Assembly: GCA_017608345.1 (NCBI GenBank) | Contig: JAFCGA010000001.1 | Location: 33,766 to 97,765, forward strand | Source of the DNA: Candidatus Pacearchaeota archaeon | GTDB lineage: Archaea; Nanobdellota; Nanobdellia; UBA10117; JAFCGA01 | Direction of reading: 5' to 3' | Length of the DNA: 64,000 bases | Shown: positions 25,269 through 57,769 of the stretch, one piece after another | Layout: every line of letters starts with the position of its first letter | Numbering within the stretch: position 1 is the first letter of the stretch | Translations under genes and position numbers: made by a program | Notes under the pieces: model-generated | Databases searched by the model: none | What the model was told of the DNA's origin: nothing | Seen by the model: only the letters and a program-made list of their open reading frames with translations

Positions 25269-26066
25269 ATGCAGAGCCCCTTTAATAAACCGCAGAATCC
25301 ATCACATCCTTCTGGCACTGGCAGAATTAAGTGGGAGGTCATTTTCCAGCTGATAAATTTCATACTATTGATAGTAATTGTTTTTTTCGTTATACCTCGG
25401 TCCCAAATATCAACGGAGGATGTGCTTACGGGAAATGCTGCTAAGGTTGAAGTGGTAGAGCCGGTTGAAGAGCCAGAACCTGAGAAAGTGGAGGAACCCG
25501 TAGTAGAAGATAAATCGGGGATGGTTTGCAATAAGCCCTATATCGTTGTAGGCAATGATTGCTGCTTAGATAAAGATGGTAATTCAATATGCGACAAGGA
25601 TGAGACTACCGCAATCTCGTTAACTGCTGAAGATGTCAAAGCTATTGCGTTAGATAGCGCTGAGGAGGAAATAGCTGCTTCTGATTCAGATTGCCATCTA
25701 GCTCATGAGGGTTTTAATCAACCAGACTTTAGTCTGCGATTCGAATTAGGCGAGGCTAAAATAGCGTCGATTAAACGAGAAGTAGATTCAGGTTGGGCAG
25801 TTTTTGAGCTAGTCATACAGCCGACTGAAGAAGGACGACTGCATTGCGATGCTGCAGAGTACTATAATAATGTTCCCATTGAAGAATTTGAAATAGATAA
25901 TATACATACTACTCGAGAAGTCGAGCCAATGGACGAAGAAGGAACGCGACTAGTCAACTATCGCGTGACTTGCTATAACGCTAAAGAGTATGAGTATAAG
26001 GACACCTGCGATACAATAAAGTCTAAATTCAAAAGCGGGACGCTACTTATAGAGTATGAAGATTAA
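25269..26066 (+). CDS. membrane-anchored Cys-rich hypothetical protein (265 aa)
   Basis: N-terminal TM segment FQLINFILLIVIVFFVI, then an acidic linker and a Cys-containing ectodomain. Its stop codon abuts the 3' end of tRNA-Thr. Confidence 0.5.
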   Translation: MQSPFNKPQNPSHPSGTGRIKWEVIFQLINFILLIVIVFFVIPRSQISTEDVLTGNAAKVEVVEPVEEPEPEKVEEPVVEDKSGMVCNKPYIVVGNDCCLDKDGNSICDKDETTAISLTAEDVKAIALDSAEEEIAASDSDCHLAHEGFNQPDFSLRFELGEAKIASIKREVDSGWAVFELVIQPTEEGRLHCDAAEYYNNVPIEEFEIDNIHTTREVEPMDEEGTRLVNYRVTCYNAKEYEYKDTCDTIKSKFKSGTLLIEYED

Positions 26067-26207
26067 GCCCCCAATGGGAGTTGAACCCATGACCTATGGT
26101 TTAATTGGAGCTCCCTTCTTTTCTTTTCCCGAGGGTTTTCTTTTCTTTGGGAAGAAAAGAAAAGGCTCTTACAAAACCATCGCTCTACCAGGCTGAGCTA
26201 TGGAGGC
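26066..26207 (-). tRNA. tRNA-Thr(UGU) with a 68-nt intron at the canonical 37/38 site (26102-26169)
   Basis: The minus strand folds as GCCTCCA TA GCTC AGCCTGGTA GAGC G ATGGT TTTGTA[intron]A ACCAT AGGTC ATGGG TTCAACT CCCAT TGGGGGC T. It is 74 nt after intron removal. Confidence 0.85.
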
Positions 26208-26248
26208 TTAGTAAAAAGATAAAAAAGTAGTTTAAAAAGGTTACTAGC

Positions 26249-26650
26249 TTAACTCGGTTGTTTCTGGATTAGTTTCTCAGCAGCTTTGTAATCAAAGCTA
26301 AATCCAATATTCTCATCGTTAAGGATTTCATCTACCGCGCTTATTGTTTTCTCAAGTTCTTGCTTGAGATTTTTAATTTCTTTAATCATATCCTTGTCAT
26401 CATGCAGTTTTTTTCTTGCTAATCTTCCTGCGACCAATATTTTCCTTTTCTCCGTAGCGTTTATTTCTCTTAGAGAATCCTTAATTGCACGGTTTACTTC
26501 GCTATACAGCTCTGCGCATGAAAGAGATAGATTATGCATTTGATTATTGATTAAATCGTGTATTTCATCTTTTAGTTTTTCTAATAACAGAAAATCTTTC
26601 TTTTCCCACGCAAGCGTCTCTTTAAGATATTCTTCTCCATATAATACCAT
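26249..26650 (-). CDS. hypothetical coiled-coil protein (133 aa)
   Basis: ORF in the track. Confidence 0.45.
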   Translation of the reverse strand: MVLYGEEYLKETLAWEKKDFLLLEKLKDEIHDLINNQMHNLSLSCAELYSEVNRAIKDSLREINATEKRKILVAGRLARKKLHDDKDMIKEIKNLKQELEKTISAVDEILNDENIGFSFDYKAAEKLIQKQPS

Positions 26651-26701
26651 ATCCTATAAAGAATATGTAGAAGTATAAAACCTTTATGGTGAGATTAGAA
26701 G

Positions 26702-26870
26702 TGGACCGACCCGGATTCGAACCGGGGATCCTCGCGATGTAAACGCGATGTCATAACCAGATTGTCTTACTGCACGATTCATATTTTCGAGCGAAGCGAG
26801 CAAGACGCCTTTCTTTTAGCACCTTAGCTTTTCTTTCGCGAAAGAAAAGGCAGTTCTAGACCATCGGTCC
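26702..26870 (-). tRNA. tRNA-Val(UAC) with an insert of about 92 nt in the D-loop
   Basis: The minus strand folds as GGACCGA TG GTC TAGAA[insert]TCTGGTTAT GAC A TCGCG TTTACAT CGCGA GGATC CCCGG TTCGAAT CCGGG TCGGTCC A. Confidence 0.75.
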
Positions 26871-26879
26871 ACTAATTTG

Positions 26880-27068
26880 CTCACGTGGACTTTTGTTCTG
26901 TAGCGAGCTGATGAGCGAGCGTTTATTTCGAAGCTCCGTAGGAGTTGAGCAAACTGCTTCTCTTTGGGGCTACTCAACTTTGTTGAGTCCCCAAACTCGT
27001 TTGGGCTACCTTACCACCTTTCTCTTCGCAAGAGAAAGGGGGCAGCGACCAATCGGTCCACTACTATT
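26880..27068 (-). pseudogene. tRNA-Val-like 5' fragment fused to an intron-like element (leader or pseudo-tRNA)
   Basis: The minus strand starts AGTGGACCGATTGGTC, versus AGTGGACCGATGGTC for tRNA-Val. This is followed by GCTGCC-CCTTTCTCTT-GCGA-AGAGAAAGG, the hairpins CCCAAAC/GTTTGGG and ACTCAAC/GTTGAGT, then CCCCAAAGAGAAGC...CTCCTACGGAGC, which is homologous to the tRNA-Ala(GGC) D-loop insert. I could not build any anticodon or T arm. Confidence 0.35.
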
Positions 27069-27083
27069 AGGCGTAGCAAGTCC

Positions 27084-27091
27084 TTTATAAA
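27084..27091 (-). promoter_or_regulatory. TATA box (TTTATAAA) for the transcript containing the tRNA-like element and tRNA-Val
   Basis: About 22 nt upstream of GTGGACC at 27066. No TATA-like element lies directly upstream of tRNA-Val itself. Confidence 0.45.
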
Positions 27092-27167
27092 TCTAACTGC
27101 TAATCATAAAATCACTTTCGAGTAGGTCTGGAAGCTTTAAATAGCAGAGCTTCTTTGGGCTAGAATT

Positions 27168-27302
27168 ATGGAGCTAGATCTTATAGAAAAATATCCGCTA
27201 TTATTCCCTGTGGACGACGAAGAGGACGCTGAAGAAGAAGAGGAAGAAGACGACGAAGAGTGGGAAGATGGTCCTAAAGAAAGGAAATTTGTGGCTTGCT
27301 AA
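27168..27302 (+). CDS. possible small acidic protein (44 aa)
   Basis: My translation is MELDLIEKYPLLFPVDDEEDAEEEEEEDDEEWEDGPKERKFVAC. The ORF is short and low in complexity. Confidence 0.2.
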   Translation: MELDLIEKYPLLFPVDDEEDAEEEEEEDDEEWEDGPKERKFVAC

Positions 27303-27383
27303 TTAAGTTCTGTATTTTCGTCTTTTTTTACAATTCAAAAGCCTTTAAAGTATTTCGTTTCTAAAGAGTAGTAGTGATTCAAA

Positions 27384-27929
27384 ATGACAACTGATTTAGA
27401 AACGAAAGTAGGAACTACAACCGTTGGACCAGATCTTGGTTTATTTGGAGCTAAGACTGGCGTACAAGCTGATGCAGAGAAATTATATGATAGAATTATG
27501 AAATATAATCCTCTCTCAAAACCAACTAACTGTAAAATCGGCATGGATGAAGCCTTTGCACTGCGTGTTGAAGCTGATGATAACGTAAGAGTACAAGTCA
27601 TAAGTCCGGTACAGTTTGACGAACAAACTTTGTATTGTCCTGGCGGAGTTGTGAATAGTAAGATGCATGGCAAACCTTGCAGAGAGATAACCCAACCTAC
27701 CATGTATACAGTTACAAAAACAGGAGTAGCAACTGCAGTACAATGGGATAATATAACTAGTGGGATGAAGCCTGGAGAGCCAGTTGGATATCAGCAAAAG
27801 ATTGCTAAGAATAAGAATATTGTTCCAATCTCTAGAGATGTAGTTAAAGAAATAGCTACCCTTATAACAAAGTACACACCAAAACAAGCACCTACACAGA
27901 AGAAAAAGGTTGCACATAAACAAAAATAG
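27384..27929 (+). CDS. hypothetical protein (181 aa)
   Basis: ORF in the track with normal amino-acid composition. Both antisense ORFs look like junk. Confidence 0.55.
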   Translation: MTTDLETKVGTTTVGPDLGLFGAKTGVQADAEKLYDRIMKYNPLSKPTNCKIGMDEAFALRVEADDNVRVQVISPVQFDEQTLYCPGGVVNSKMHGKPCREITQPTMYTVTKTGVATAVQWDNITSGMKPGEPVGYQQKIAKNKNIVPISRDVVKEIATLITKYTPKQAPTQKKKVAHKQK

Positions 27930-27969
27930 TTTTAAGAGCAGGCACTTGCTTGCCAACTTCTTTTATTTT

Positions 27970-29637
27970 TTACTTATGCGTAAAGCAGAATACTTGTTTT
28001 GTTTTTAATTTTCTATCTAATTTACAGAAGCCAAACCGCTCAAACTGGATAATTGCACCAACTTTTAGTTTTTTGATATTTGGTTCTGCTACGCCTTTGA
28101 CAACTGTTCCGTCGGGCATAAGGATTTCAGTCTTAACAGCACTTTTAGATACCCACTGTATTTTTTGAATCTTTTTATTTGGCTGGCTGGTGAATTCTCC
28201 GGAAGTATCTAGTTTTATGTTGTAGAGATCTTTTAATCGGATCTCAGTTCCGTAGAATCTTTCAAAATCAGACTTTGCGATGCAAATTAAATTATTTACT
28301 TTGATTTGACGGGTCTTGCCAGAGTAAGGGCTTATCGGAACACTTATCTCTTGTATGTCCTTTGGAGCATTTGGAATTTCTATCTCTATTGGATCTGCTA
28401 CAAAGGAATATCTATTTGCAATCGGGTCAATTATTTCGCGATTGTGTGCATAGATTATTTTCATGAATTCTTCGAAACTCACGCGCTTATCTACATTGCT
28501 CGGACCAACGCCGATTACGTATTTTCTAAATGCTTCTGGCTGTAAGCCTCTGCGCCTTAGCGCTTTTAGCGTCGGTAATCGAACGTCATCAAATCCACTA
28601 TATTCCTTTTCCTTGACCCCTTTTAGAAATTCCCGTTTGCTAATCTTAATGCCTGTGAATTGAATTCGTCCGTGATGTATATATTGCGGCTTCTTCCAGC
28701 CCATCGCATCAAAGATGTATGCCTGTCGTAGGGTATTATCTGCATGATCTTTGCCGCGGATTACGTGAGTGAGACCAAGCGTGTGATCATCGACCGCAAC
28801 TGCTAGATTCATTAGCGGCCATACGCGATATTTCGTTCCCTGCCGAGGATGCTTATCTTCGGCGATTCTAAATACTGGAAAATCTCGCATAGCTGGATTT
28901 TTGTGCTCCAAATCGGTCTTTATTCGCATAACAGCGTCTCCAGCTATGTATCTTCCAAACATATCTTTCCATCGTTCAAGGGTTTCTGCCGGAGGCAAGG
29001 TTCTGCAAGGACAGGCTGTCTTCTTGCTTAATAAAAATTTGAATTTCTCAGGATCGCAGGTACATATGTAAGCAACGTCTTTTTTTATTAGCTCTTCAGC
29101 AGTATTATAATATAAGGCCATTCGATCAGATTGGATATGAACTTCATCGACGCGATCTTCTGTCAGCCAGTTAGAATCTTCATCAATATGATCATAAGCT
29201 TTTTTGTAAACTCCTGCTGGATTCGTATCAGAGATGCGAATTATTAGCTTACCGTCGTACTTGTCTGCATAGCCAGCGTTTAGTAGCAAGGGAAAGGAAT
29301 GCCCAATATGCATCGGTCCGCTCGGCGCAGGCTCGAATCGAAGGACAACTTTACCTTGTTTAGCATTCTTAAGCGGAGGCAGTTCTTTTTTGGCTTCCTC
29401 TTTTTCTTCGAAGAAATTTGGGTCGATTTGCATAAGCCGAGATTTCTGCGCATCTAGGGATAGCTTGTTAATTCGCGGAAGAACCAGCCGTATCTCTTCG
29501 CTTACTTTTAGAACATTATTTCTCAACTGCAGCTTCTCAGCAAGAACTTTTCCAAGGACAGCTTTTTCAGTCGCCTTGCCGTTATGCGTTACAGCATTCA
29601 TAAGCGCTGCTTTCTCAATTAATTTAAGTAAGCTCAT
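27970..29637 (-). CDS. gltX: glutamyl-tRNA synthetase (archaeal type)
   Basis: MSLLKLIEKAALMNAVTHNGKA is a typical archaeal GluRS N-terminus, and PSGPMHIGHSFPLLLN is the HIGH motif. The start is set at the ATG at 29637 rather than the upstream track start. Confidence 0.9.
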   Translation of the reverse strand: MSLLKLIEKAALMNAVTHNGKATEKAVLGKVLAEKLQLRNNVLKVSEEIRLVLPRINKLSLDAQKSRLMQIDPNFFEEKEEAKKELPPLKNAKQGKVVLRFEPAPSGPMHIGHSFPLLLNAGYADKYDGKLIIRISDTNPAGVYKKAYDHIDEDSNWLTEDRVDEVHIQSDRMALYYNTAEELIKKDVAYICTCDPEKFKFLLSKKTACPCRTLPPAETLERWKDMFGRYIAGDAVMRIKTDLEHKNPAMRDFPVFRIAEDKHPRQGTKYRVWPLMNLAVAVDDHTLGLTHVIRGKDHADNTLRQAYIFDAMGWKKPQYIHHGRIQFTGIKISKREFLKGVKEKEYSGFDDVRLPTLKALRRRGLQPEAFRKYVIGVGPSNVDKRVSFEEFMKIIYAHNREIIDPIANRYSFVADPIEIEIPNAPKDIQEISVPISPYSGKTRQIKVNNLICIAKSDFERFYGTEIRLKDLYNIKLDTSGEFTSQPNKKIQKIQWVSKSAVKTEILMPDGTVVKGVAEPNIKKLKVGAIIQFERFGFCKLDRKLKTKQVFCFTHK

Positions 29638-29689
29638 TGTAAATCTTTGATTTTCAATTCCACAGAAATTGCTGAGCAATTTCGTGGAT

Positions 29690-29739
29690 CCACGGAACTT
29701 CGTTCCGTTGGTCCCAAAAATCCGCCCGAGGATTTTTGG
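29690..29739. repeat. twin hairpin in the tyrS-gltX spacer
   Basis: CCACGGAAC-TTC-GTTCCGTTGG followed by CCAAAAATCC-GCCCGA-GGATTTTTGG. The first hairpin resembles the CCGGAAC-NN-GTTCCGG module of the tRNA inserts. Confidence 0.45.
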
Positions 29740-29781
29740 TTATAAAACTAAAAATGAGACCGTTGTATTTAAATTCAACGG

Positions 29782-30828
29782 TTAATAGCCTGCTTTCTTT
29801 AATAAATTCTTCATCTTCTGACTTGAAAAGTGCTTTCTAACTGGAGCAAGAATATCATTTAGCTCTCTAGCCACTGCTTTCTTGAGATCCATCGGATGCA
29901 GCTGCTTATCTGCAAAGGCTTGCTCTAGCTGTCGATAATTTCCAAACTCAATATTCCCACCGAATTTTTCAGGCCGCTTAATTATGAATTTCTTGCTAGC
30001 GTCTTTTAGGCGAGGCATTATGACTAATTTTATTAGTTCTAGCAAGCCGTTTTCTTCTACTTTTCCAGTGACGCAGAAAGCAGAGTTTATTTTCTTGCTG
30101 ATATCTTTTTCAGAGTCTAACAGACTGATTTTAGTAGAGGAGCCTGCGGAAGCGCTCATCTTTCCACCCATTTTTCCACCAGATAGACTCGGAAGCAGCG
30201 GACCAAAAACACAAGTTGGCTTCTTGCGACCAACTGCTGGAAAGACCTCTCTCCCTAGCATGTAGATACCGCGCTGATCTACTCCTCCGAAAGCGACATC
30301 TGCGTTAAGAGCAGTGATATCTTCAATTTGCATTAGCGGATATATGAATCCGCCTAGCTTTGGCGCATCTCCGAAACGAACAACCTCCGAAGCTGCCCGT
30401 TTAACTCGAGCAAAAGTTACTTCTCCAGCAAATCTTAGAACATCGAGCTGATAGTCTTTTTCTAATTGAAAGTCTGAGCCCTTAACAAATTTGATATTCT
30501 TTGGATCAACGCCTAAAGATTTTATCGCACTTTTCGCTAGCTCTTCATAAACTTTGGCTCTGAATGCTAGCTGCTCCCAGCTGGATTTTTTATCATCTAA
30601 GTATGCATGAATATCTGCAACCAAGAAGGTGAATTTGAAGCCAGCTCGCAAAAAGTCAGCGATTTTTAGCAAAGGAACTAGATGGCCGATATGCAGTAAA
30701 CCTGTCGGAGCATAGCCAACATAAGCAGTAGGATTCTTCTTCTTTTTTAGAAGCTCTTTTAGCTCTTTCTCTTCAACGATTTCCTGAGTGTTTCTTTTTA
30801 TTAGCCTAAATTTTTCTTCTGTATTCAT
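29782..30828 (-). CDS. tyrS: tyrosyl-tRNA synthetase
   Basis: Aligns closely by eye with archaeal TyrRS: LIKRNTQEIVEEKEL, GYAPTGLLHIGH, KMSAS, IKRPEKFGG and QLHPMDLKKAV. AGGTGA lies 4 nt upstream of the ATG at 30828. Confidence 0.95.
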   Translation of the reverse strand: MNTEEKFRLIKRNTQEIVEEKELKELLKKKKNPTAYVGYAPTGLLHIGHLVPLLKIADFLRAGFKFTFLVADIHAYLDDKKSSWEQLAFRAKVYEELAKSAIKSLGVDPKNIKFVKGSDFQLEKDYQLDVLRFAGEVTFARVKRAASEVVRFGDAPKLGGFIYPLMQIEDITALNADVAFGGVDQRGIYMLGREVFPAVGRKKPTCVFGPLLPSLSGGKMGGKMSASAGSSTKISLLDSEKDISKKINSAFCVTGKVEENGLLELIKLVIMPRLKDASKKFIIKRPEKFGGNIEFGNYRQLEQAFADKQLHPMDLKKAVARELNDILAPVRKHFSSQKMKNLLKKAGY

Positions 30829-30869
30829 AATTTCACCTCGCAATACCGTCTATTAAATCTTGCGGCAAG

Positions 30870-31136: not shown

Positions 31137-31547
31137 TTATCTCACCTCAGTCCCGCGGGCCGGAGTTGCACCAGCAGCCTCTCGGTCTACGGCCGAGCGC
31201 TCTTCTAACTGCTCCAACCGTTTCTTATTTCCGAGCGAAGCGAGCAAGACGCCTTTCTTTTGGCATCTTAGCTTTTCTTTCGCGAAAGAAAAGGCAGATT
31301 GAGCTACCGCGGGAAGAATTAATTCACCAGTATGAGTTAGAGAAATTAGCTTACTATCGCCGAAGCTGATTAGTCTCTTATTTCTGAGCTGGCGAAGATT
31401 ATGCCAGCCAGTTGATTTAGGTAAGTTTAGAGAAGCGACAAATTGTGATGCAGTTAGTAAGTCATTATCTGCGATTGCGAATAAAAGCTTACGCTGAAGA
31501 TCAGGTATATTATTAGAAATTAATTCGCAGAGGATACGGATGATCAC
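31137..31547 (-). CDS. winged-helix (HTH) protein ORF whose C-terminal 58 codons run through tRNA-Tyr
   Basis: The first 78 aa (…LTASQFVASLNLPKSTGWHNLRQLRNKRLISFGDSKLISLTHTGEL) look like a wHTH. There is no in-frame stop before 31137. Confidence 0.4.
   Translation of the reverse strand: MIIRILCELISNNIPDLQRKLLFAIADNDLLTASQFVASLNLPKSTGWHNLRQLRNKRLISFGDSKLISLTHTGELILPAVAQSAFSFAKEKLRCQKKGVLLASLGNKKRLEQLEERSAVDREAAGATPARGTEVR
31151..31313 (-). tRNA. tRNA-Tyr(GUA) with an insert of about 87 nt in the D-loop
   Basis: The minus strand folds as CCCGCGG TA GCTC AATC[insert]GAGC G CTCGG CCGTAGA CCGAG AGGCT GCTGG TGCAACT CCGGC CCGCGGG A. The archaeal Tyr identity pair C1:G72 is present. Position 33 reads C rather than U. 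Confidence 0.75.
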
Positions 31548-31720
31548 CCATCAAAAATTTAGAGCTATGGCTAGGGATTTCGTTACTAACAGTACCGACA
31601 CTCACCTGCTATGTCTGGTGAGCTATCGGAATTTATTCCGATTTGATCGCCTATATTTATCATACTACTTCAATAGCGAGCGGATTTAAAAAGCTTTTGT
31701 GCAACGATTTTTGTATAATT

Positions 31721-32059: not shown

Positions 32060-32103
32060 AAAAGTAGACGAACGTTTATATATTCTTTTCTTGATAGATA
32101 TAT

Positions 32104-34426: not shown

Positions 34427-34728
34427 TGGACCGGCCGGGATTTTCTGAAGGACAAATAGACCAAAGTATTTTGGTTTTACCAACTTCAGGGAGGTTGGTA
34501 CACCTTGGTTGGCTATATTTGAGTTGAAGGAACTTCAACTCCAGCCAGACAATGTGCTAGGGGGTCTTGCCCTTACTTTGAACCCGGGGCCTTCTACGTG
34601 CGAGGCAGACGCTCTACCGCTTCAGCAGCGTTTTCTTATTTTCCGAGCGCAAGCGAGAAAGAATTTTTCTTTTTCGCCAACGTTTTTCTTTTGTTAAAAG
34701 AAAAAGGCTGTGGCTGAGCTACCGGCCC
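34427..34728 (-). tRNA. tRNA-Ala(CGC), 302 nt, with a D-loop insert (about 90 nt) and a T-loop insert (about 136 nt)
   Basis: The minus strand folds as GGGCCGG TA GCTC AGCCA[34621-34710]GCGGTA GAGC G TCTGC CTCGCAC GTAGA AGGCC CCGGG TTCAAA[34441-34576]T CCCGG CCGGTCC A. G3:U70 is present, and the gene is 76 nt after removing the inserts. Confidence 0.75.
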
Positions 34729-34832
34729 ACTACTTATTCGCAGTCACTAACTATTTTATGTAAGGGATATTATAAAGATTATGTATCGCTAGAAATCTTC
34801 GGACTTCTGGAATTACAAATCAAATATTAGCA

Positions 34833-36767
34833 ATGGTAAGACAGCCTCCAGCACAAGTTTACAGTCAAGTTAGTGATCCTGCTCTAAAAAAAGGCGAGCT
34901 AAAGAAGAGCATACCTTTCTCGATATTACTTTTGCTAGCGATTAATGCTATCATCGGTACAGGTATCTTCTTTGTTCCGGGGATTGCAGCAGGGATTGCT
35001 GGTCCAGCTTCGCTGATTTCATGGGTGGCTGTAGCTAGTATGGCTATATTTATTGCCGCGTGTTTTGCTGAACTTTCAGGTATGTTTCCGAAGTGCGGAG
35101 GAGTATATGAATATACAAAGCAAGCTTTCGGGGAGTTCGGGGGCTACTTAGTTGGGTGGACTTCTTGGATTGTGGCGAACGTGACGATTGCCATGCTCAC
35201 AATCGGCTCTCTTGATTATCTCGGGACCATCGTTCCAATTCCTCACTGGCAAAAGCTAGCATTTTGTGTGGCGTTCTTGATGGGAATGAATTATATTTCG
35301 TTCCGAGGAATAGACATGTCAGTTAAAGTTCTCTTAGTGTTTGCAATATTCACAATTCTAAGCTTATGGACTTTATTTAGCTGGGGAATTTATCATGTTA
35401 ATCTCGCTCACCTGAGTCTAACAACGTTTCTTCCGCTTTTCCCAAAAGTCTCGCTCACGATAGCGATGCTTTATATTATGGAGACGTTCTTCGGCTGGGA
35501 AACCGTCGCATATCTATCTGAAGAAACAAAGGACGCTCAACACGTTATTCCGAAAGTCATGATGTGGGCTACGGTGGCAGTCTGCCTTCTGGCCATAGCT
35601 GTTGTCACAGTTACACTCGGTGTTGTTCCATGGGAGCAGCTTGCCGCTTCAGCTTCACCATTAGTAGACGCAGCAATTGTATTTATGGGTACAACTGGGG
35701 CCAAGTTTATGGCTATTTTGATTTTCCTTAATATTATTGGAGGCGCAGCTGCGTGGATAGTAGTCACTCCACGTTTAGTATATGCGCTTGCAAGAGATAA
35801 ATTGCTGCCTGAATCATTAGGCAAAGTTCATCCTAAGCATAATACTCCTCATATGGCTATCCTCTTGCAGACATTTCTCAGCATTGCAATCGTTCTTGCA
35901 GGAGCCTATAAGTTTCTATTAGAAATGCTATTACCCATGGCAGTATTCATGTATTCAATGGTTATTGTAAGCGTAGCAATACTCAGATTTACAAAGCCTC
36001 ACCTTACAAGAACGTTTAAGGTTCCATGGGGCAAGTATAGTCCGATAATTATTGCGTTGATTATGCTATTTCTAGCCGGTGCGATTGAGATTGGAACAAT
36101 TGTTTCTGGTGCTTTGTTCATCTTAATCGGAATTCCGCTGTATCTGATTACTGTAATAAAATACAAACCAGAGGTCATTAGGGATTTTCTTAATATTTCG
36201 GCAGGACTTACCAAGCTGACGTATAAGTGGTGGCTGTCCAAAAAAACTCGGCGAAGAATTATTCATTTATTGGGCAGTCTAAAAGCGGGTAGAATATTTA
36301 ATCCGAGCTGTAATATTGGAATACTAGCTGTTGATCTATCTAAATTTGTTGGTCCGCAAGGCAAGATATTTGCTACAGATTTATCGGATAAACAGATTAA
36401 TGAAGCCCAGAAATATGCTCTGGAGAATAAATCAGAGAATATTCAATTCATATTGGAAGATCCAGCAGGTAAGCACAAGATTCATCAAGATATACATTCC
36501 TTGCATGGCGCCGCGTCTGTTGATATGCTCAGTTATCTTGAAGATCCTAAATTGTTCTTATGCGAACTTAATCGTAGAATGCATCACCAAGGCAGAATAT
36601 ATTTTGTAGAATTTGATAAGGTGTTTGGTATGCGCACTCAGAGTTGGCTCCAAGAAGATCAGAAAGCAATCCAGGCATTTGCTCAGTGTGGGTTTCATAT
36701 TAAAATCGAGCGAGAAAAGAAGCTTTTCTGGGAGACAATACACCTTCTTGGCTATAAAGTACGATAA
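34833..36767 (+). CDS. APC-family amino-acid permease fused to a C-terminal class-I methyltransferase-like domain
   Basis: The N-terminal ~440 aa have 12 TM helices and an APC pattern (INAIIGTGIFFVPG, FAELSGMFPKCGGVYEY). The C-terminal ~190 aa have a Rossmann-MTase-like layout (IFATDLSDKQINEAQKYA..., RMHHQGRIYFVEF), but the Gly-rich loop is degenerate (NPSCNIG). Confidence 0.75.
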   Translation: MVRQPPAQVYSQVSDPALKKGELKKSIPFSILLLLAINAIIGTGIFFVPGIAAGIAGPASLISWVAVASMAIFIAACFAELSGMFPKCGGVYEYTKQAFGEFGGYLVGWTSWIVANVTIAMLTIGSLDYLGTIVPIPHWQKLAFCVAFLMGMNYISFRGIDMSVKVLLVFAIFTILSLWTLFSWGIYHVNLAHLSLTTFLPLFPKVSLTIAMLYIMETFFGWETVAYLSEETKDAQHVIPKVMMWATVAVCLLAIAVVTVTLGVVPWEQLAASASPLVDAAIVFMGTTGAKFMAILIFLNIIGGAAAWIVVTPRLVYALARDKLLPESLGKVHPKHNTPHMAILLQTFLSIAIVLAGAYKFLLEMLLPMAVFMYSMVIVSVAILRFTKPHLTRTFKVPWGKYSPIIIALIMLFLAGAIEIGTIVSGALFILIGIPLYLITVIKYKPEVIRDFLNISAGLTKLTYKWWLSKKTRRRIIHLLGSLKAGRIFNPSCNIGILAVDLSKFVGPQGKIFATDLSDKQINEAQKYALENKSENIQFILEDPAGKHKIHQDIHSLHGAASVDMLSYLEDPKLFLCELNRRMHHQGRIYFVEFDKVFGMRTQSWLQEDQKAIQAFAQCGFHIKIEREKKLFWETIHLLGYKVR

Positions 36768-44494: not shown

Positions 44495-44495
44495 T

Positions 44496-52903: not shown

Positions 52904-52908
52904 CGTTA

Positions 52909-53292: not shown

Positions 53293-53297
53293 TAAAT

Positions 53298-53663
53298 TTA
53301 TAAAACTTTCGCCATTTTATCCGCAATCCGCTTCTTCCGCTCAGCTCGCTTTGGAGGAATGGATTGGATGACTCTGAACATTGATTCTGTATCTGCGCAG
53401 TCTGTTAATAGAAGTTTACCGTCTTCTGCTAGCAGTTTCAATTGTACGATAAAATCGTACGGTTCAAATCCTTCTTCGTCTAAACTATTCTTTAGATCCG
53501 ACCAATATCGCTTAGGTATTGAACTTATGTCTAAAGCGTTTACAATATCAACTACTGAGAAAAACCACTTACCTTCATGCCGGATTCGTCGGATATTCTT
53601 TCCGTGAAAAGTGACTAGCGCATTATTTGAAGCTATTTTATTATCCGGAGTAATATTAGCAAT
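53298..53663 (-). pseudogene. Bro-N-domain ORF with no usable start codon (in-frame TAG 12 codons after a possible TTG)
   Basis: My minus-strand translation is IANITPDNKIASNNALVTFHGKNIRRIRHEGKWFFSVVDIVNALDISSIPKRYWSDLKNSLDEEGFEPYDFIVQLKLLAEDGKLLLTDCADTESMFRVIQSIPPKRAERKKRIADKMAKVL*. The first ATG/GTG/TTG in frame leaves only 46 aa, which is why it is absent from the track. Confidence 0.45.
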
Positions 53664-53731
53664 CTAGATTTTATAATGATTTTGACGATCCAAGAGCAAA
53701 CCTCTAAAAGCCTTCCCTATAACTTATATTT

Positions 53732-54808: not shown

Positions 54809-54846
54809 AAACATTTAAAAGCGCTGTATAAATCTTAAATTTAGAT

Positions 54847-55069
54847 GGGGCTATGGTGTAGCTAGAGCTTAAGTATTGCTTTAGTTCCTACAATGGCTAG
54901 CATCGCAGGTTTGGGACCTGCAGACCCCAGTTCAAAGCGGAGCCTTTTCTTTTGCTAAAAGAAAAGTTCCCGCCGCTCTCCAAAAGAAAAGCGTATTGCT
55001 CGCTTCGCTCGAGAATATTGCCTTTGGCAAGTTAGGAGATGTCGGCACTTGAAAATCTGGGTAGCCCCA
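54847..55069 (+). tRNA. tRNA-Pro(UGG) with a D-loop insert (about 31 nt) and a T-loop insert (about 119 nt)
   Basis: Folds as GGGGCTA TG GTGT AGC[54863-54893]TGGCTA GCAT C GCAGG TTTGGGA CCTGC AGAC CCCAG TTCAAA[54937-55055]T CTGGG TAGCCCC A. It is 73 nt after removing the inserts. Confidence 0.75.
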
Positions 55070-55074
55070 TTGAT

Positions 55075-55213
55075 GCGCCCGTGGTCTAGTGGTACGCGCT
55101 AAAAATCCGTGCACTAAATGACTCAAGCTTGCCAAGCTTGCAACCCGAGTTCAAATTCGGACTGGTTCGAATTACTGCGAGAACTTGTTCGATCGGAAAT
55201 CTCGGCGGGCGCA
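55075..55213 (+). tRNA. tRNA-Gly(GCC) with a D-loop insert (about 24 nt) and a T-loop insert (about 44 nt)
   Basis: Folds as GCGCCCG TG GTCT AGTGGTA[55095-55118]TGAC T CAAGC TTGCCAA GCTTG CAAC CCGAG TTCAAAT[insert]CTCGG CGGGCGC A. It is 71 nt after removing the inserts and starts 5 nt after tRNA-Pro. Confidence 0.75.
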
Positions 55214-55297
55214 TTTTATGTAACTACTATTGTATACTTAAACAAATATATAAATGAGCGTATACTTATTTCTAATAACATCTATAGAGGTGCTAAG

Positions 55298-55552
55298 ATG
55301 GTTAAACACAATTTAAAGAAACACGAGCATCTAGGGTTACTTTTAATATTCGCTGGCGCGACGTGGCTCGGATTCGCTCTATATGGAACACTTCTAGCAG
55401 CTAACAGAATGTTAGTTCCAGCGATGCCACTGATTGCAGGAAAGGAATTATTTATCTTTCCATTATTCTTCGGAATAGGAGCATTACTAGTAACACTAGG
55501 AAAAATAGAGTTAAGAGAAGCTTTACCGGGTAAAAATAGGGGGTTGTTATAA
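55298..55552 (+). CDS. small membrane protein (84 aa)
   Basis: Uses the internal ATG (MVKHNLKKHEHLGLLLIFAG...) preceded by AGAGG. The longer track ORF starts inside tRNA-Gly. Confidence 0.4.
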   Translation: MVKHNLKKHEHLGLLLIFAGATWLGFALYGTLLAANRMLVPAMPLIAGKELFIFPLFFGIGALLVTLGKIELREALPGKNRGLL

Positions 55553-55554
55553 AT

Positions 55555-55662
55555 ATGAAAGAAATGTCTAAAGAAGAAATAGAATATGGAATAAAAGAGT
55601 TCATACAAGGTCTCTTAGTAGGATTCATAATCGGATTCATAATCGCGACCCAGCTATTGTAA
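55555..55662 (+). CDS. possible 35-aa single-TM peptide
   Basis: MKEMSKEEIEYGIKEFIQGLLVGFIIGFIIATQLL, starting 2 nt after the previous stop. Confidence 0.25.
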   Translation: MKEMSKEEIEYGIKEFIQGLLVGFIIGFIIATQLL

Positions 55663-55767
55663 GCTCTTTCTCTTTTATTTTTTTAATTATTTTTATTTTT
55701 AATATACTATTGAAACTAGAAAGTTTTCAAAAACCTTATAAATCCGTTCTTAGCTTTATTCTTTAGT

Positions 55768-55974
55768 GGGCCGTTAGCTCAGAGCCTTTTTCTTTCTTTC
55801 CCAAAGAAAGAAAAACCCTCGGGAAAAAGAAAGAACGGGAACGCGAGCAATCTGGTCATATTCCGTCAGGAATATTCCTGGACGGAGTACTGGAAAGAGC
55901 ACTTGGCTCTTAACCAAGGTGTCGAGGGTTCAAAGCTGCCAAATATTAAGCAGTAGAAAATCCCTTACGGCCCG
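55768..55974 (+). tRNA. tRNA-Lys(CUU) with a D-loop insert (about 105 nt) and a T-loop insert (26 nt)
   Basis: Folds as GGGCCGT TA GCTC AG[about 55783-55887]..CTGGAAA GAGC A CTTGG CTCTTAA CCAAG GTGTC GAGGG TTCAAA[55935-55960]T CCCTT ACGGCCC G. TTATAAAT lies 25-32 nt upstream. Confidence 0.8.
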
Positions 55975-56015
55975 CTATCTAAATTCTTTTATACTCTTTA
56001 TATCCGAAAGATAAT

Positions 56016-56732
56016 ATGGAGTACCAAGTTCTTGTCCATGCTGGCGGTCCTGGAACGAGATTAAGACCCTATACGTTGGAGAAACCAAAGGGCCTTTTAG
56101 AAGTTAAAGATAAAACCCTAATAGAACTAGCAATTCAACCTTTTCTGGAGTTCGGAATTAAGAAGTTCGTTCTTACTGCTAACTATAAAGCAGAAATGCT
56201 CAAAGCGTTCTTTTTAGAAAAACATCCTGAACTGGATATTTCTTTTATTGAAGAGAAAACTCGGTCTGGAAGAGCGGGAGCAGTGAAGCTAGGTATAGAA
56301 CAAGGCAAACTCGACCCCGAAAAACTAACAATAATTGCGCACCAAGACGATCTTATTTCACTCGATGTTGCTAAACTAATCGATACGCATAAGAGCAGCG
56401 GCGCGGAAGCTACTGTTATCTTAGCTAGATCATTTACAAATCCCTTTGGGGTAGTTCACCATTCAGAAGGCAAGATAACAAAGTTCGAAGAAAAAGCCCA
56501 GACGGAGATGCCAGAAACTCAGGCTGTTAATGCGGGAATGAGTGTTTTTTCTAATCTTAAGCTATTCCTAGATGTTCCGATACCTTCGCATGAAGAATAT
56601 GTCATTTTTCCGAAGCTAGCTGAGCAAGGCAAGCTCGGAGTTTTCTTTGCTGACTCATGGAAACCAATTAATACAAAAGAGGAGTACCATAAGCTAATTT
56701 CTGATGTGAGCGATACAGCAGAATTCATGTGA
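56016..56732 (+). CDS. sugar-phosphate nucleotidyltransferase
   Basis: VHAGGPGTRLRPYTLEKPKGLLEV is the G-x-G-T-R-L signature. Confidence 0.85.
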   Translation: MEYQVLVHAGGPGTRLRPYTLEKPKGLLEVKDKTLIELAIQPFLEFGIKKFVLTANYKAEMLKAFFLEKHPELDISFIEEKTRSGRAGAVKLGIEQGKLDPEKLTIIAHQDDLISLDVAKLIDTHKSSGAEATVILARSFTNPFGVVHHSEGKITKFEEKAQTEMPETQAVNAGMSVFSNLKLFLDVPIPSHEEYVIFPKLAEQGKLGVFFADSWKPINTKEEYHKLISDVSDTAEFM

Positions 56733-56764
56733 TAGTTAATTATATCTTTCACTTCGATTTTACT

Positions 56765-56875
56765 ATCTATCCAAAGCTAGCTAAAGTGGGTGAGATAAAT
56801 GCTTATTTCGTAGATTCCTGGAAGTCGGTTAATACAAAGGAAGATTATCTTCGATTGTTAGCTGAGCAGAAATGA
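56765..56875 (+). pseudogene. C-terminal fragment of a second nucleotidyltransferase paralogue
   Basis: IYPKLAKVGEINAYFVDSWKSVNTKEDYLRLLAEQK* parallels the end of the upstream gene (IFPKLAEQGKLGVFFADSWKPINTKEEYHKLISD). The N-terminal ~190 aa are absent. Confidence 0.5.
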
Positions 56876-57193
56876 CTAGCGAATATATTCCTTACGCACT
56901 GCTTCTATGAACTGCGCTATGTTGTTTAGTGGTAAATTATAATGTTTAATCGGAGTCTGATTGCGTCGATTGCTTATTACAGTTTCGACCTCCACTTGCT
57001 CAAAAGCAACAGCTAGTCTACCCTTGCAAATGCGCGCAAAAGTTTCATATCTTAATCCATACGTCTCAATAAGGTATTTCCTATCAAATCCGCTGCGGAT
57101 CTTAATGAAAGCTCTTATTAGCTTAAAGTCATTTAGCTGTTTGTTTGGGAATTCGTCAAGAAGTGCGTCAATTTTCTCTTGCAGATCATTCAT
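56876..57193 (-). CDS. hypothetical protein (105 aa)
   Basis: ORF in the track. Confidence 0.4.
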   Translation of the reverse strand: MNDLQEKIDALLDEFPNKQLNDFKLIRAFIKIRSGFDRKYLIETYGLRYETFARICKGRLAVAFEQVEVETVISNRRNQTPIKHYNLPLNNIAQFIEAVRKEYIR

Positions 57194-57241
57194 TGCTATT
57201 CGATAAGGTTATAAAACTAAACGCTTTTTAAATTAACTAGT

Positions 57242-57587
57242 GGGCCGGTAGTTCAGCCAGCGGATCCCTTGCTCTCCAGACCGGAACAAGTTCCGGTTGG
57301 CCACGCGGAATTTCATTCCGCTTGGTGCAAAGAGAAAGGTCTACGCATCACCCCAAAGAGAAGCGTATTCCTTCGCTCCTTCGGAGCTCAAAAATAAAGA
57401 GATTTGCCTGAAACGGTAGAACGCTACATTGGCAGAGCCTTTTTCTCTTTCCAGAAAGAGAAAAACGTTCGCGAAAAAGAGAAAGCGAACATGGGTTTCA
57501 GACTTGTAGAGGCCCCGAGTTCAAATAGCCTTTCTTTCCTGAATGAAAGAACGAATTTCAGAGGCTAGGAAAATCTCGGCCGGTCCA
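57242..57587 (+). tRNA. tRNA-Ala(GGC), 346 nt, with three inserts: D-loop (about 153 nt), canonical 37/38 (69 nt) and T-loop (about 48 nt)
   Basis: Folds as GGGCCGG TA GTTC AGCC..[insert]..GGTA GAAC G CTACA TTGGCA[57435-57503]T TGTAG AGGCC CCGAG TTCAAA[about 57526-57573]T CTCGG CCGGTCC A. G3:U70 is present, and the gene is 76 nt after removing the inserts. Confidence 0.75.
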
Positions 57588-57683
57588 CTAATAACTTTTT
57601 TAAAGTGCTTAATCTTAGAATTAATTATGCAGAGATTATGCAAAAAAAGGTTTTTGCTAGATCTCAGCACTCACTACGTTCGT

Positions 57684-57769
57684 GCCGAGATAGCTCAGCT
57701 GGTAGAGCGCCAGTTTAATAGGCGAATCTCATAAGCTGGAGGTCGGGAGTTCGAGCCTCCCTCTCGGCA
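57684..57769 (+). tRNA. tRNA-Met/Ile2(CAU), elongator type, with a 13-nt insert at the 31/32 boundary
   Basis: Folds as GCCGAGA TA GCTC AGCTGGTA GAGC G CCAGT[TTAATAGGCGAAT]CTCATAA GCTGG AGGTC GGGAG TTCGAGC CTCCC TCTCGGC A. Confidence 0.8.

What the first reader, a model, noticed from the sequence alone, without database searches (positions are those of the whole stretch)
26066..57769. Every tRNA gene in the window is interrupted: 15 inserts in 9 tRNAs, mostly in D- and T-loops
Nine tRNA genes (Thr-UGU, Val-UAC, Tyr-GUA, Ala-CGC, Pro-UGG, Gly-GCC, Lys-CUU, Ala-GGC, CAU) give a cloverleaf only if 1-3 internal segments are removed. By my folds, 7 inserts are in the D-loop, 5 in the T-loop, 2 at the canonical 37/38 site and 1 at 31/32. 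After removal each gene is 71-76 nt and carries the expected identity elements: G3:U70 in both Ala genes and C1:G72 in Tyr. The inserts range from 13 to about 155 nt. Multiple introns at non-canonical positions are known in Thermoproteales and some DPANN archaea, but 100 percent interruption, systematic D-loop plus T-loop pairs and inserts larger than the tRNA itself look extreme.
Basis: partly seen in the sequence, partly recalled or inferred. Interest (0 to 1): 0.8.

Follow-up and report, generated by a model that had tools for sequence, protein, structure and literature searches.

The report
Nine archaeal tRNA genes, all intron-split
All nine tRNA genes in this stretch of a tiny DPANN-type archaeon are real genes cut up by 15-16 removable inserts, and many inserts carry one shared three-part repeat that also sits between tRNA genes in relatives, which suggests how such introns spread.

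Summary
The window has exactly nine tRNA genes: Thr-UGU, Val-UAC, Tyr-GUA, Ala-CGC, Pro-UGG, Gly-GCC, Lys-CUU, Ala-GGC and CAU. None is intact. Removing 1-3 segments per gene (13-153 nt; 15 inserts, or 16 if Lys has two D-loop inserts) gives 71-77 nt cloverleaves that ARAGORN calls with the expected anticodons.

The inserts behave as archaeal bulge-helix-bulge (BHB) introns. Both 37/38 introns have a strict BHB. The five T-loop introns share one geometry at 59/60. The D-loop introns are mostly relaxed forms. BHB-likeness beats random site pairs (combined p about 1e-11).

The organism is Woesearchaeota-like. Relatives carry the same isoacceptors intact or with introns at other positions, and the spliced products align colinearly with them. 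This argues for young, mobile introns rather than pseudogenes.

One feature appears new. Eight inserts here, relatives' introns, their inter-tRNA spacers and one solitary intergenic copy share a pyrimidine tract, its reverse complement, and a mirror copy of that complement. This is the sequence signature of an intrastrand triplex.

No splicing endonuclease gene is in the window, and there is no RNA evidence. The kind is known; the variant is unusual.

The parts
26066..26207 (-). tRNA-Thr(UGU). Exons 26207-26170 and 26101-26066. 68-nt intron 26102-26169 at 37/38.
   Evidence: Rfam 53.5 bits. Strict hBHBh' with H3, h'4, h5, p<0.001. The spliced product is called Thr-TGT.
26702..26870 (-). tRNA-Val(UAC). 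Exons 26870-26856 and 26761-26702. 94-nt D-loop intron 26762-26855 after position 15.
   Evidence: Spliced product called Val-TAC. The spliced D arm GGTCTAG|TCTGGTTATGAC matches the relative's intact D arm. The BHB is relaxed: H is GTCT/AGAC, h' is ACTGC/GCAGT, with one extra nucleotide.
26871..27059 (-). Displaced 5' fragment of tRNA-Val (27059-27046, GGACCGATTGGTCG) followed by a copy of the repeat element. It lies directly upstream of the full Val gene.
   Evidence: Seen in the sequence. The only TATA-like box (TTTATAAA) lies 24 nt upstream of the fragment, not of the full gene. Element homology is shown.
31151..31313 (-). tRNA-Tyr(GUA). One-intron reading: exons 31313-31297 and 31210-31151, 86-nt D-loop insert 31211-31296. 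Two-intron readings are also possible.
   Evidence: ARAGORN calls Tyr-GTA under four alternative splicings. The one-intron reading has strict BHB geometry, p=0.001. The insert is 94% identical over 79 nt to the Val insert. C1:G72 is present; C33 and G55 are atypical.
34427..34728 (-). tRNA-Ala(CGC). Exons 34728-34711, 34620-34577 and 34440-34427. D-loop intron 34621-34710 (90 nt). T-loop intron 34441-34576 (136 nt).
   Evidence: Spliced product called Ala-CGC, with G3:U70. D intron is HBh' (H4, h'3). T intron has h as the T stem, H as TTCA/AGAA and 3' bulge AA|T.
54847..55069 (+). tRNA-Pro(UGG). Exons 54847-54862, 54894-54936 and 55056-55069. D-loop intron 54863-54893 (31 nt). T-loop intron 54937-55055 (119 nt).
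   Evidence: Spliced product called Pro-TGG. D intron has H4, h'5, h4 with a 4-nt 3' bulge, p=0.001. T intron has H as TTCA/TGAA and h as the T stem.
55075..55213 (+). tRNA-Gly(GCC), 5 nt downstream of Pro. Exons 55075-55094, 55119-55156 and 55201-55213. D-loop intron 55095-55118 (24 nt). T-loop intron 55157-55200 (44 nt).
   Evidence: Spliced product called Gly-GCC. D intron is HBh' in strict geometry (H4, h'4), p=0.011.
55768..55974 (+). tRNA-Lys(CUU). Exons 55768-55782, 55851-55856 (6-nt micro-exon TCTGGT), 55896-55934 and 55961-55974. D-loop introns 55783-55850 (68 nt) and 55857-55895 (39 nt). T-loop intron 55935-55960 (26 nt).
   Evidence: Called Lys-CTT under all readings. The two-D-intron reading gives the D arm AGCTCAGTCTGGTAGAGC, which differs by a single 1-nt gap from the intact ortholog in L129.
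57242..57587 (+). tRNA-Ala(GGC). Exons 57242-57260, 57414-57434, 57504-57526 and 57575-57587. Introns 57261-57413 (153 nt, D loop), 57435-57503 (69 nt, 37/38) and 57527-57574 (48 nt, T loop).
   Evidence: Spliced product called Ala-GGC, with G3:U70. The 37/38 intron is a perfect hBHBh' (H4, h'5, h5), p<0.001. The T intron is relaxed, p=0.01. The D intron is weak in strict geometry. The spliced D loop AGCCAGCGGTA is identical to that of Ala-CGC.
57684..57769 (+). tRNA(CAU), elongator-Met or Ile2 type. Exons 57684-57713 and 57727-57769. 13-nt mini-intron 57714-57726 at 30/31 (equivalent to 31/32).
   Evidence: Rfam 58.9 bits. hBH plus loop: h is GAG/CTC, H is CGCC/GGCG, bulges AG|T and AA|T; strict-geometry p=0.003.
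26116..26163 (-). Three-tract module in the Thr intron: TTTTCTTTTCTT / AAGAAAAGAAAA / linker CCCTCGGG / AAAAGAAAAGAA.
   Evidence: The mirror match is 12/12 in register.
26808..26849 (-). Three-tract module in the Val D-loop intron, followed by the conserved 3' box at 26782-26808.
31252..31293 (-). Three-tract module in the Tyr D-loop insert, followed by the 3' box at 31226-31252.
34664..34705 (-). Three-tract module in the Ala-CGC D-loop intron (linker CGTTGGCG).
54944..54991 (+). Three-tract module in the Pro T-loop intron, followed by the 3' box at 54991-55017.
55787..55835 (+). Three-tract module in the first Lys D-loop intron (linker CCCTCGGG).
   Evidence: The mirror match is 12/12 in register.
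57440..57485 (+). Three-tract module in the Ala-GGC 37/38 intron (GAG core, linker CGTTCGCG).
   Evidence: The mirror match is 11/11 in register.
57529..57551 (+). Partial module in the Ala-GGC T-loop intron: pyrimidine/purine hairpin only, with no third tract.
3405..3560 (-). Solitary copy of the same repeat element (module plus the 3' GCTTCAGAAATAA box), in the gap between the FKBP-type and FtsZ genes. No recognisable tRNA is nearby.
   Evidence: The flanking genes were identified.

Best explanation
These are nine functional tRNA genes of a DPANN (Woesearchaeota-like) archaeon. Each is interrupted by 1-3 protein-spliced BHB introns, 15-16 in total.

Proposed pathway (inferred from established archaeal tRNA biology):
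- Each gene, or the Pro-Gly pair, is transcribed from a TTTAWAAA box about 24 nt upstream.
- In the precursor, each exon-intron boundary pair folds into a BHB or a relaxed HBh'/hBH motif.
- A broad-specificity splicing endonuclease (EndA) cuts in the two bulges, and RtcB-type ligase joins the exons. This yields 71-77 nt tRNAs and probably circular introns.

The introns look evolutionarily young and interrelated. Most of the long ones are copies of one 90-170 nt repeat family. Its 5' part is a pyrimidine tract (S1), a purine tract that is its reverse complement (S2), and a second purine tract that is the mirror image of S2 (S3). In relatives the same element sits in 3' trailers and inter-tRNA spacers, and one solitary copy lies in this window.

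My reading is that this repeat spreads at the DNA level into tRNA transcription units. Inside a gene it survives only where its flanks give EndA a usable BHB.

Shown: the gene models, junction motifs, element homology and comparison with relatives. Inferred: splicing, the enzymes, and the mode of spread.
For: 1. Spliced products are tRNAs with the expected anticodons and identity elements, whereas the unspliced genes are missed or only partly matched.
2. Junction motifs. Thr and Ala-GGC 37/38 have strict hBHBh'. CAU has hBH plus a loop. All five T-loop introns share h as the T stem, H as T54-A57 paired with xGAA, and the 3' bulge AA|T, which places them at 59/60. Gly, Ala-CGC, Lys-1 and Pro D-loop introns are HBh'-like. 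The combined p against random site pairs is about 1e-11.
3. The organism is archaeal and DPANN-like (aIF5B, class I aaRS, TFB; best named hits are Woesearchaeota).
4. No intact tRNA exists in the 64 kb.
5. Relatives L126, L128 and L129 carry intact Thr, Pro, Lys and Ala-GGC, and Val, Gly and CAU with introns at other positions. My spliced products align colinearly with them at 66-83% identity.
6. Intron relatedness. The Val and Tyr D-loop introns are 94% identical over 79 nt. Six elements share one architecture.
7. The module. There are 19 tRNA-sense instances with 16 distinct S2 sequences. Twelve are perfect in-register mirrors. By my own inspection of the table, the other seven become perfect once the terminal G(s) or GC of S2 are assigned to the linker stem. 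Permutation p<5e-5. Pyrimidine/purine hairpins of this kind with a matching third tract were not found in four other loci (L124, L125, L130, L131).
8. Literature. Non-canonical positions including 30/31 and 59/60, three-intron genes and intron 'transposition' are established for Crenarchaeota (PMC4090602). DPANN lineages show raised tRNA disruption linked to EndA loop insertions (PMC5829648).
Against: - There are no RNA data, so splicing is not demonstrated.
- No EndA or RtcB gene is among the 67 window ORFs scanned against Pfam (nearly all non-nested ORFs of 100 aa or more), and the rest of the genome could not be retrieved.
- Several junctions are weak in strict geometry (Val, Lys second D intron, Ala-GGC D intron). 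For T-loop introns, part of the score comes from the T stem itself.
- The strict cut sites of the Lys T-loop intron would leave an 8-nt T loop unless a 4-nt bulge is assumed.
- tRNA-Tyr has C33 and G55 at near-universal U positions, and its splice pattern is ambiguous.
- Instances of the module are partly homologous copies, so they are not statistically independent.
Confidence: 0.8

Rival explanations
1. The nine loci are pseudogenes. They would be tRNA genes inactivated by insertion of a small repeat (MITE- or PIT-like), with intact functional copies elsewhere in the genome.
For: - The inserts belong to a repeat family that also occurs outside tRNA genes: the solitary copy at 3405-3560 and spacers in relatives.
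- A displaced 5' Val fragment lies upstream of the Val gene.
- tRNA-Tyr carries C33 and G55.
- The rest of the genome could not be inspected.
Against: - All nine genes keep complete, GC-rich exons that still fold (60% GC against 40% for the window).
- Junctions are BHB-like far beyond chance.
- No intact tRNA lies in the 64 kb.
- Stems split by inserts stay complementary while differing from relatives.
- From established knowledge, small DPANN genomes normally hold one gene per anticodon, so nine simultaneous pseudogenes is implausible.
Confidence: 0.07
2. The inserts are not spliced in cis. Each exon would be its own transcription unit, with the T-rich tract acting as terminator and the AAATA box as promoter. 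The pieces would then be joined in trans, as in the split tRNAs of Nanoarchaeum.
For: - Each long insert begins with T4-T5 runs a few nucleotides after the exon end and ends with an A/T-rich box (GAAATAA/AAAATA).
- The same T-rich module follows complete tRNAs in relatives, where a terminator would be expected.
Against: - Genuine promoters here read TTTAWAAA 24 nt before the tRNA 5' end. The intronic boxes do not match that consensus.
- Those boxes lie only 14-18 nt from the 3' splice site (Val 18 nt, Ala-CGC 14 nt), so transcripts would start inside the exon.
- Exons are colinear and adjacent.
- Seven inserts (13-136 nt) have neither element.
Confidence: 0.04
3. The apparent inserts are assembly artefacts, meaning repeat-induced chimeric joins in a metagenome-assembled contig.
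For: The window comes from a metagenomic contig (the cluster record lists a 244,767-nt contig), and the inserts contain repeated sequence.
Against: - Sixteen inserts all fall so that exon order, orientation and reading register are exactly preserved.
- The same gene architecture appears in independent assemblies from other samples (ENA, JGI, Logan).
Confidence: 0.02

Closest known systems
Multi-intron tRNA genes of Thermoproteales / Crenarchaeota (Marck & Grosjean 2003; Sugahara 2008; Fujishima 2010; reviewed in PMC4090602)
   Same: Up to three BHB or relaxed-BHB introns per tRNA gene. Non-canonical positions include 30/31 and 59/60. Nearly identical introns occur in unrelated tRNAs, which has been interpreted as intron transposition. 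Most tRNA genes are interrupted.
   Different: The lineage differs (DPANN, 40% GC). There is a strong preference for D-loop plus T-loop pairs. Non-canonical introns reach 136-153 nt. There is a probable 6-nt micro-exon. The shared element has a three-tract, triplex-type module and also occupies inter-tRNA spacers.
Disrupted tRNA genes of DPANN archaea with broad-specificity EndA (ARMAN epsilon2, PMC3239211 and PMC3488258; L3-loop alpha4 types, PMC5829648)
   Same: These are ultrasmall archaea with raised numbers of non-canonical and multiple tRNA introns. Standard predictors miss many of their tRNAs.
   Different: The endonuclease of this organism is unknown. The density here (9 of 9 genes, about 1.8 introns per gene) exceeds that of its own relatives (12 of 16 genes, about 1.0 per gene).
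Potential intrastrand triplex (PIT / BoxC / TM) repeats of bacteria (Hoyne/Maher 2000; Holder et al. 2015, PMC4666352)
   Same: One strand carries pyrimidine tract - purine tract - mirror purine tract with short loops (class II purine motif; class IV pyrimidine motif on the complement). The elements are repeated in the genome and associated with rearranged loci.
   Different: The composition here is A/T-rich (T-A-A triads with a few C-G-G). The host is archaeal. The elements are embedded in tRNA introns and spacers and always lie in the tRNA-sense orientation. No in vitro evidence of triplex formation exists.
tRNA-Thr fragment plus intron gain in Caldiarchaeum subterraneum (PMC3293823)
   Same: A displaced 5' tRNA fragment lies upstream of an intron-containing full copy. 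That paper reads this as the footprint of integration or recombination of a mobile element.
   Different: The intervening DNA here is only about 175 nt and non-coding (a copy of the repeat element), not a 1.8-kb recombinase-bearing element.
Ectopic D-, anticodon- and T-arm introns of Cyanidioschyzon merolae and nucleomorph tRNAs (PMC3728597, PMC9602550)
   Same: [quoted passage not shown]
   Different: Those hosts are eukaryotic, the introns are short, and there is no shared repeat module.

Membership tests
Archaeal BHB (EndA-spliced) tRNA introns | The insert interrupts a tRNA gene, and the exons rejoin into a canonical cloverleaf with a sensible anticodon. | tested here: met
   ARAGORN calls all nine spliced products. 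They align colinearly with intact orthologs in relatives.
Archaeal BHB (EndA-spliced) tRNA introns | A strict hBHBh' motif at the boundaries: two 3-nt bulges separated by a 4-bp helix, with cuts after the second bulge nucleotide. | tested here: inconclusive
   Clearly met for Thr 37/38, Ala-GGC 37/38, the Tyr one-intron reading and CAU (hBH) (p<=0.003). Partly met (HBh' or hBH) for Gly-D, Ala-CGC-D and the five T-loop introns. Not met in strict geometry for Val-D, Lys-D2, Ala-GGC-D and Pro-D, which need 2- or 4-nt bulges.
Archaeal BHB (EndA-spliced) tRNA introns | A relaxed BHB (HBh'/hBH) at non-canonical sites, found more often than chance. | tested here: met
   All 16 junction pairs score 8-12 of 12 in relaxed geometry. 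The Fisher combined p against 1500 random site pairs of the same length is 2e-11.
Archaeal BHB (EndA-spliced) tRNA introns | The genome encodes EndA of a broad-specificity type ((alpha-beta)2, epsilon2, or alpha4 with a loop insert) and RtcB ligase. | not testable with these tools
   Neither gene is among the window ORFs scanned against Pfam. The source contig and genome were not retrievable.
Archaeal BHB (EndA-spliced) tRNA introns | Mature spliced tRNA and excised (circular) introns are present in cellular RNA. | not testable with these tools
   No RNA data are available.
Split or permuted tRNA genes | tRNA pieces are encoded at separate loci or in permuted order, each with its own promoter. 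| tested here: not met
   Exons are colinear within 86-346 nt. The intronic A/T boxes do not match the promoter consensus or its spacing.
Group I / group II self-splicing introns | A conserved catalytic RNA core. | tested here: not met
   No Rfam intron family matches anywhere in the window at E<=10. The inserts are 13-153 nt, too short for such cores.
Intrastrand triplex (PIT/BoxC, class II) motif | One strand carries tract 1 (pyrimidine), tract 2 (its reverse complement) and tract 3 (the mirror of tract 2), joined by short loops. | tested here: met
   There are 19 tRNA-sense instances with 16 distinct tract-2 sequences. Twelve of 19 are perfect in-register mirrors. By my inspection of the table, the rest become perfect after trimming the terminal G(s) or GC of tract 2. 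Permutation p<5e-5. One instance has a 51-nt linker, which is longer than usual for the class.
Intrastrand triplex (PIT/BoxC, class II) motif | A triple helix actually forms (CD, NMR, footprinting). | not testable with these tools
   The literature states that purine-motif triplexes form in DNA but not in RNA, whereas pyrimidine-motif triplexes (the complementary strand here) do form in RNA (PMC4666352). ViennaRNA cannot model triplexes. Its MFE folds alternate between S1:S2 and shifted S1:S3 pairing.

The most novel reading that the evidence does not exclude
The pyrimidine-purine-mirror-purine module is a true triple-helix-forming element. It could act in single-stranded DNA of the sense strand, or as a U.A-U-type RNA triplex on the complementary strand. 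On this reading it marks a recombinogenic or mobile repeat that creates new tRNA introns and inter-tRNA spacers in a Woesearchaeota-like clade. That would give a concrete vehicle for the long-unexplained 'transposition' of archaeal BHB introns.
Probability: 0.3. Interest if true: 0.8.

Novelty: new variant of a known kind. Interest (0 to 1): 0.6.

Why it matters
How archaeal tRNA introns are gained and moved is an open question. The BHB motif explains their removal but not their spread.

This clade offers closely related genomes in which the same tRNA is intact, singly interrupted or triply interrupted. The inserted DNA is a recognisable repeat that also occurs in spacers and as a solitary copy, with footprints such as displaced 5' tRNA fragments. 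That makes intron gain directly testable by comparative genomics and RNA sequencing.

Practically, standard tools find only 1-3 of the 9 genes. tRNA complements of such DPANN genomes, and completeness or auxotrophy inferences drawn from them, are therefore badly underestimated.

If the splicing endonuclease turns out to be a simple alpha4 type, the relaxed D- and T-loop sites would also widen the known substrate range of that enzyme class.

Tried and rejected
- Genome-collection scan with the 16-mer TTGCTCGCTTCGCTCG.
- Metagenome scan with the 22-mer 3' box. It returned two unrelated contexts and no tRNAs.
- Exact-protein look-ups for the source contig failed three times, and the cluster record carries no name. 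The organism is therefore identified only by homology.
- Loci syntenic around TyrRS/GluRS in relatives (L124, L125, L131) contain no tRNAs.
- A more distant relative (L130) has one intact tRNA and no module.
- ARAGORN with intron options mis-assigns anticodons and finds at most five loci, so it is not usable for these genes.
- Internal promoter / split-gene idea: rejected on consensus and spacing.
- By eye, no convincing C/D-box or K-turn pattern is present in the inserts. No Rfam family overlaps any insert at E<=10.
- Per-instance permutation tests of the mirror tract are weak because the tracts are low-complexity. Only the in-register, across-instance test is informative.
- A simple bistable S1:S2 / S1:S3 switch was considered. 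S1:S3 pairing is possible in a shifted register, but that model predicts a direct copy of the purine tract, not the mirror copy observed.

Full report
**1. What is in the sequence**

Standard tools see almost none of the tRNA genes. ARAGORN finds one, with the wrong anticodon. At its gathering thresholds Rfam finds two tRNAs with large gaps in the anticodon loop and one mismatched partial hit.

I then scanned for a GC-rich 7-bp acceptor stem plus a T arm while allowing inserts. That scan recovers exactly these nine loci and no other GC-rich candidate in the 64 kb. The window therefore holds nine tRNA genes and no intact one.

**2. Gene models**

With the exon coordinates listed under 'parts', the spliced sequences are 71-77 nt. 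ARAGORN calls them Thr-TGT, Val-TAC, Ala-CGC, Pro-TGG, Gly-GCC, Ala-GGC and CAT. It calls Tyr-GTA and Lys-CTT under each alternative splicing I tried.

- Both Ala genes have G3:U70, and Tyr has C1:G72.
- The two Ala genes, spliced independently, give the identical D loop AGCCAGCGGTA.
- Exons total 669 nt at 60% GC. Inserts total 1108 nt at 43% GC. The window is 40% GC.
- Inserts range from 13 to 153 nt.

For Lys, a reading with two D-loop inserts around the 6-nt micro-exon TCTGGT gives a D arm that differs by a single 1-nt gap from the intact Lys gene of a relative.

Tyr remains ambiguous between one 86-nt insert with strict BHB geometry but a 12-nt D loop, and two inserts. It also has C33 and G55 at normally invariant U positions.

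**3. Are the inserts BHB introns?**

I scored every boundary pair for the bulge-helix-bulge geometry: a 4-bp helix H, 3-nt bulges cut after the second nucleotide, and flanking helices h and h'. The register was checked on the two canonical introns, where it reproduces a 7-nt anticodon loop.

- Thr and Ala-GGC 37/38 are textbook hBHBh' (H3-4, h'4-5, h5).
- The 13-nt CAU intron is an hBH motif whose second cut lies in a hairpin loop.
- All five T-loop introns share one design. The T stem is h, T54-A57 pairs with an intronic xGAA as H, and the 3' bulge is AA|T. This places them at 59/60, a known non-canonical site (PMC4090602).
- The Gly, Ala-CGC, first Lys and Pro D-loop introns are HBh'-like.
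- Val, the second Lys D intron and the Ala-GGC D intron need irregular bulges.

Against 1500 random site pairs per intron length, the combined p is 2e-11 for relaxed geometry and 6e-12 for strict geometry. One caveat is that, for T-loop introns, part of the score comes from the T stem itself.

**4. Organism and relatives**

The proteins are archaeal: aIF5B, TFB, ribosomal proteins, and class I aminoacyl-tRNA synthetases including MetRS, GluRS, ValRS/IleRS-type and TyrRS. The best named aIF5B homologs are Woesearchaeota/Nanoarchaeota, and the nearest non-self hit is 80% identical.

No EndA or RtcB gene is among the 67 window ORFs scanned against Pfam. The source contig could not be fetched.

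I reached three relatives through homologs of the sugar-nucleotidyltransferase gene at 56016-56732. They carry syntenic tRNA clusters.

| Locus | Protein identity | tRNA genes seen |
|---|---|---|
| L126/L127 | 70% | Thr and Pro intact; Val, CAU and Gly with one intron in the anticodon loop (37/38); Lys with a T-loop intron; Ala-GGC with a D-loop intron |
| L128 | 58% | Pro and Gly each with 37/38 plus T-loop introns; Ala-GGC with a D-loop intron |
| L129 | 59% | Lys and Ala-GGC intact; Val with D plus 37/38 introns; CAU with 37/38 plus T; Thr with T; Pro with D |

So 12 of 16 genes are interrupted in relatives, about one intron per gene, against 9 of 9 and about 1.8 per gene here. My spliced products align end to end with these orthologs at 66-83% identity, with conserved loops. 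Intron presence and position differ between close relatives while the exons persist. That is what young, removable introns would show, and it is not what pseudogenes would show.

**5. The shared element**

The Val and Tyr D-loop introns are 94% identical over 79 nt. Six inserts or insert-like segments align into one architecture:

- a 5' CGGA/CNGCC
- a pyrimidine tract (S1)
- a 3-4 nt loop
- a purine tract (S2) that is the exact reverse complement of S1
- a short linker, often a 2-bp stem with a UUCG-like loop (CG-TTCG-CG, CC-CTCG-GG, CG-TTGG-CG, CG-TTCA-CG), in which the second base pair changes in a compensatory way
- a second purine tract (S3)
- a variable hairpin
- a GAAATAA-type box

S3 is the mirror image of S2, not a direct or inverted copy.

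I curated 19 tRNA-sense instances from the window and relatives, with 16 different S2 sequences. Twelve are perfect in-register mirrors. By my own inspection of the table, the other seven become perfect once the terminal G(s) or GC of S2 are assigned to the linker stem. Re-pairing S2 and S3 between instances never matched the observed fit in 20,000 permutations. The G-containing cores (G, GAG, GAAAG, GAAAAG) change together in all three tracts. On the opposite strand the same hairpins have no third tract.

The module occurs in D-loop, 37/38 and T-loop introns. In relatives it also lies directly after complete tRNAs, in trailers and inter-tRNA spacers. One solitary copy lies in this window at 3405-3560, with no tRNA nearby. 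It is absent from four other loci of related archaea.

This pattern is the definition of a class II intrastrand (purine-motif) triplex element, and of a class IV pyrimidine-motif element on the complementary strand. Such elements are known as PIT/BoxC repeats in bacteria, where they associate with rearranged loci (PMC4666352). That paper also states that purine-motif triplexes do not form in RNA. If a triplex is real here, it would therefore more plausibly form in single-stranded DNA or in an antisense RNA than in the pre-tRNA. Minimum-free-energy folds alternate between S1:S2 and a shifted S1:S3 pairing, so I cannot settle the structure. Full-text searches found no paper linking triple helices or mirror repeats to archaeal tRNA introns.

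**6. Footprints of rearrangement**

A 14-nt copy of the Val 5' end (27059-27046, with one extra T) is followed by a copy of the element, directly upstream of the full Val gene. The only TATA-like box lies 24 nt upstream of the fragment. L129 shows the same arrangement for tRNA-Thr. This parallels the displaced tRNA-Thr fragment in Caldiarchaeum, which was interpreted as the result of mobile-element integration (PMC3293823).

**7. Conclusion**

The phenomenon belongs to a known kind: multiple non-canonical BHB introns, as in Thermoproteales, with increased tRNA disruption already noted in DPANN (PMC4090602, PMC5829648).

It is an unusual variant in four respects:
- density (9 of 9 genes, 1.7 times more intron than exon sequence)
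- D-loop plus T-loop pairing
- a probable micro-exon
- above all, a conserved triplex-type repeat shared by introns, spacers and a solitary copy

The mechanism of removal (EndA plus RtcB) is inferred from established archaeal biology. The role of the repeat in intron gain is a hypothesis.

Noticed in passing
window 26871-27059 (-); also L129 about 3075-3225 (+): A displaced 5' fragment of the tRNA (Val here, Thr in L129) plus a copy of the repeat element lies directly upstream of the full gene. In the window the only TATA-like box lies upstream of the fragment, so the full Val gene may be transcribed with a leader of about 190 nt.
   Followed up: partly
window 3405-3560 (-): A solitary copy of the intron/spacer repeat element lies in the gap between the FKBP-type and FtsZ genes. 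It has the three-tract module, extra hairpins and a GCTTCAGAAATAA box. A TTTTTATAAA box lies roughly 30-40 nt upstream of the aligned copy. No tRNA exons are recognisable nearby.
   Followed up: partly
window 31151-31313 (-): tRNA-Tyr has C33 and G55 where U is nearly universal, and the T loop reads TGCAACT. In the one-intron reading its D loop also lacks GG. It may be an unusual tRNA, a decaying gene or a sequence error. It sits about 300 nt from the TyrRS gene (29782-30843).
   Followed up: partly
L126 5788-5850, 7011-7075, 14880-14945; L128 7964-8015; L129 8143-8175: In relatives the three-tract module begins 5-10 nt after the 3' end of complete tRNAs, in trailers and inter-tRNA spacers. 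Two L126 trailers are identical over more than 60 nt.
   Followed up: partly
L015, L017, L034, L051, L062, L063, L080, L109, L118; L122, L123: The GC-rich core of the element's 3' box (TTGCTCGCTTCGCTCG) turns up in AT-rich intergenic DNA of several unrelated CPR bacteria and DPANN archaea. It is often flanked by short inverted repeats, and occurs twice in a 66-nt tandem repeat in a Micrarchaeia contig. The total hit count is compatible with chance, but these contexts look non-random.
   Followed up: no
window, 5' flanks of the tRNA genes (for example 26208-26245, 27060-27095, 34729-34765, 55730-55767, 57205-57241): tRNA genes share a TTTAWAAA box about 24 nt upstream. Five 5' ends (both Val copies, Ala-CGC, Lys, Ala-GGC) share the leader TAGT immediately before G1. 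Pro and Gly are only 5 nt apart and are presumably co-transcribed.
   Followed up: no
window 31137-31547 (-) and 55118-55552 (+): Mechanical ORFs run straight through tRNA-Tyr and through the 3' part of tRNA-Gly. Gene callers may annotate interrupted tRNA regions as small hypothetical proteins, as may have happened with the unannotated 35-107 aa genes called next to the tRNA clusters in relatives.
   Followed up: no
L126 6874-7010 and L129 3221-3340: A second intron family lacks the triplex-type module and shares GTTCGCT(T/A)ACGCGAAAGC. It occupies the T loop of tRNA-Lys in L126 and of tRNA-Thr in L129.
   Followed up: no
window 34833-36767 (+): A 644-aa protein fuses an amino-acid permease domain to a C-terminal SAM-methyltransferase-like domain. 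It lies 105 nt from tRNA-Ala(CGC).
   Followed up: no
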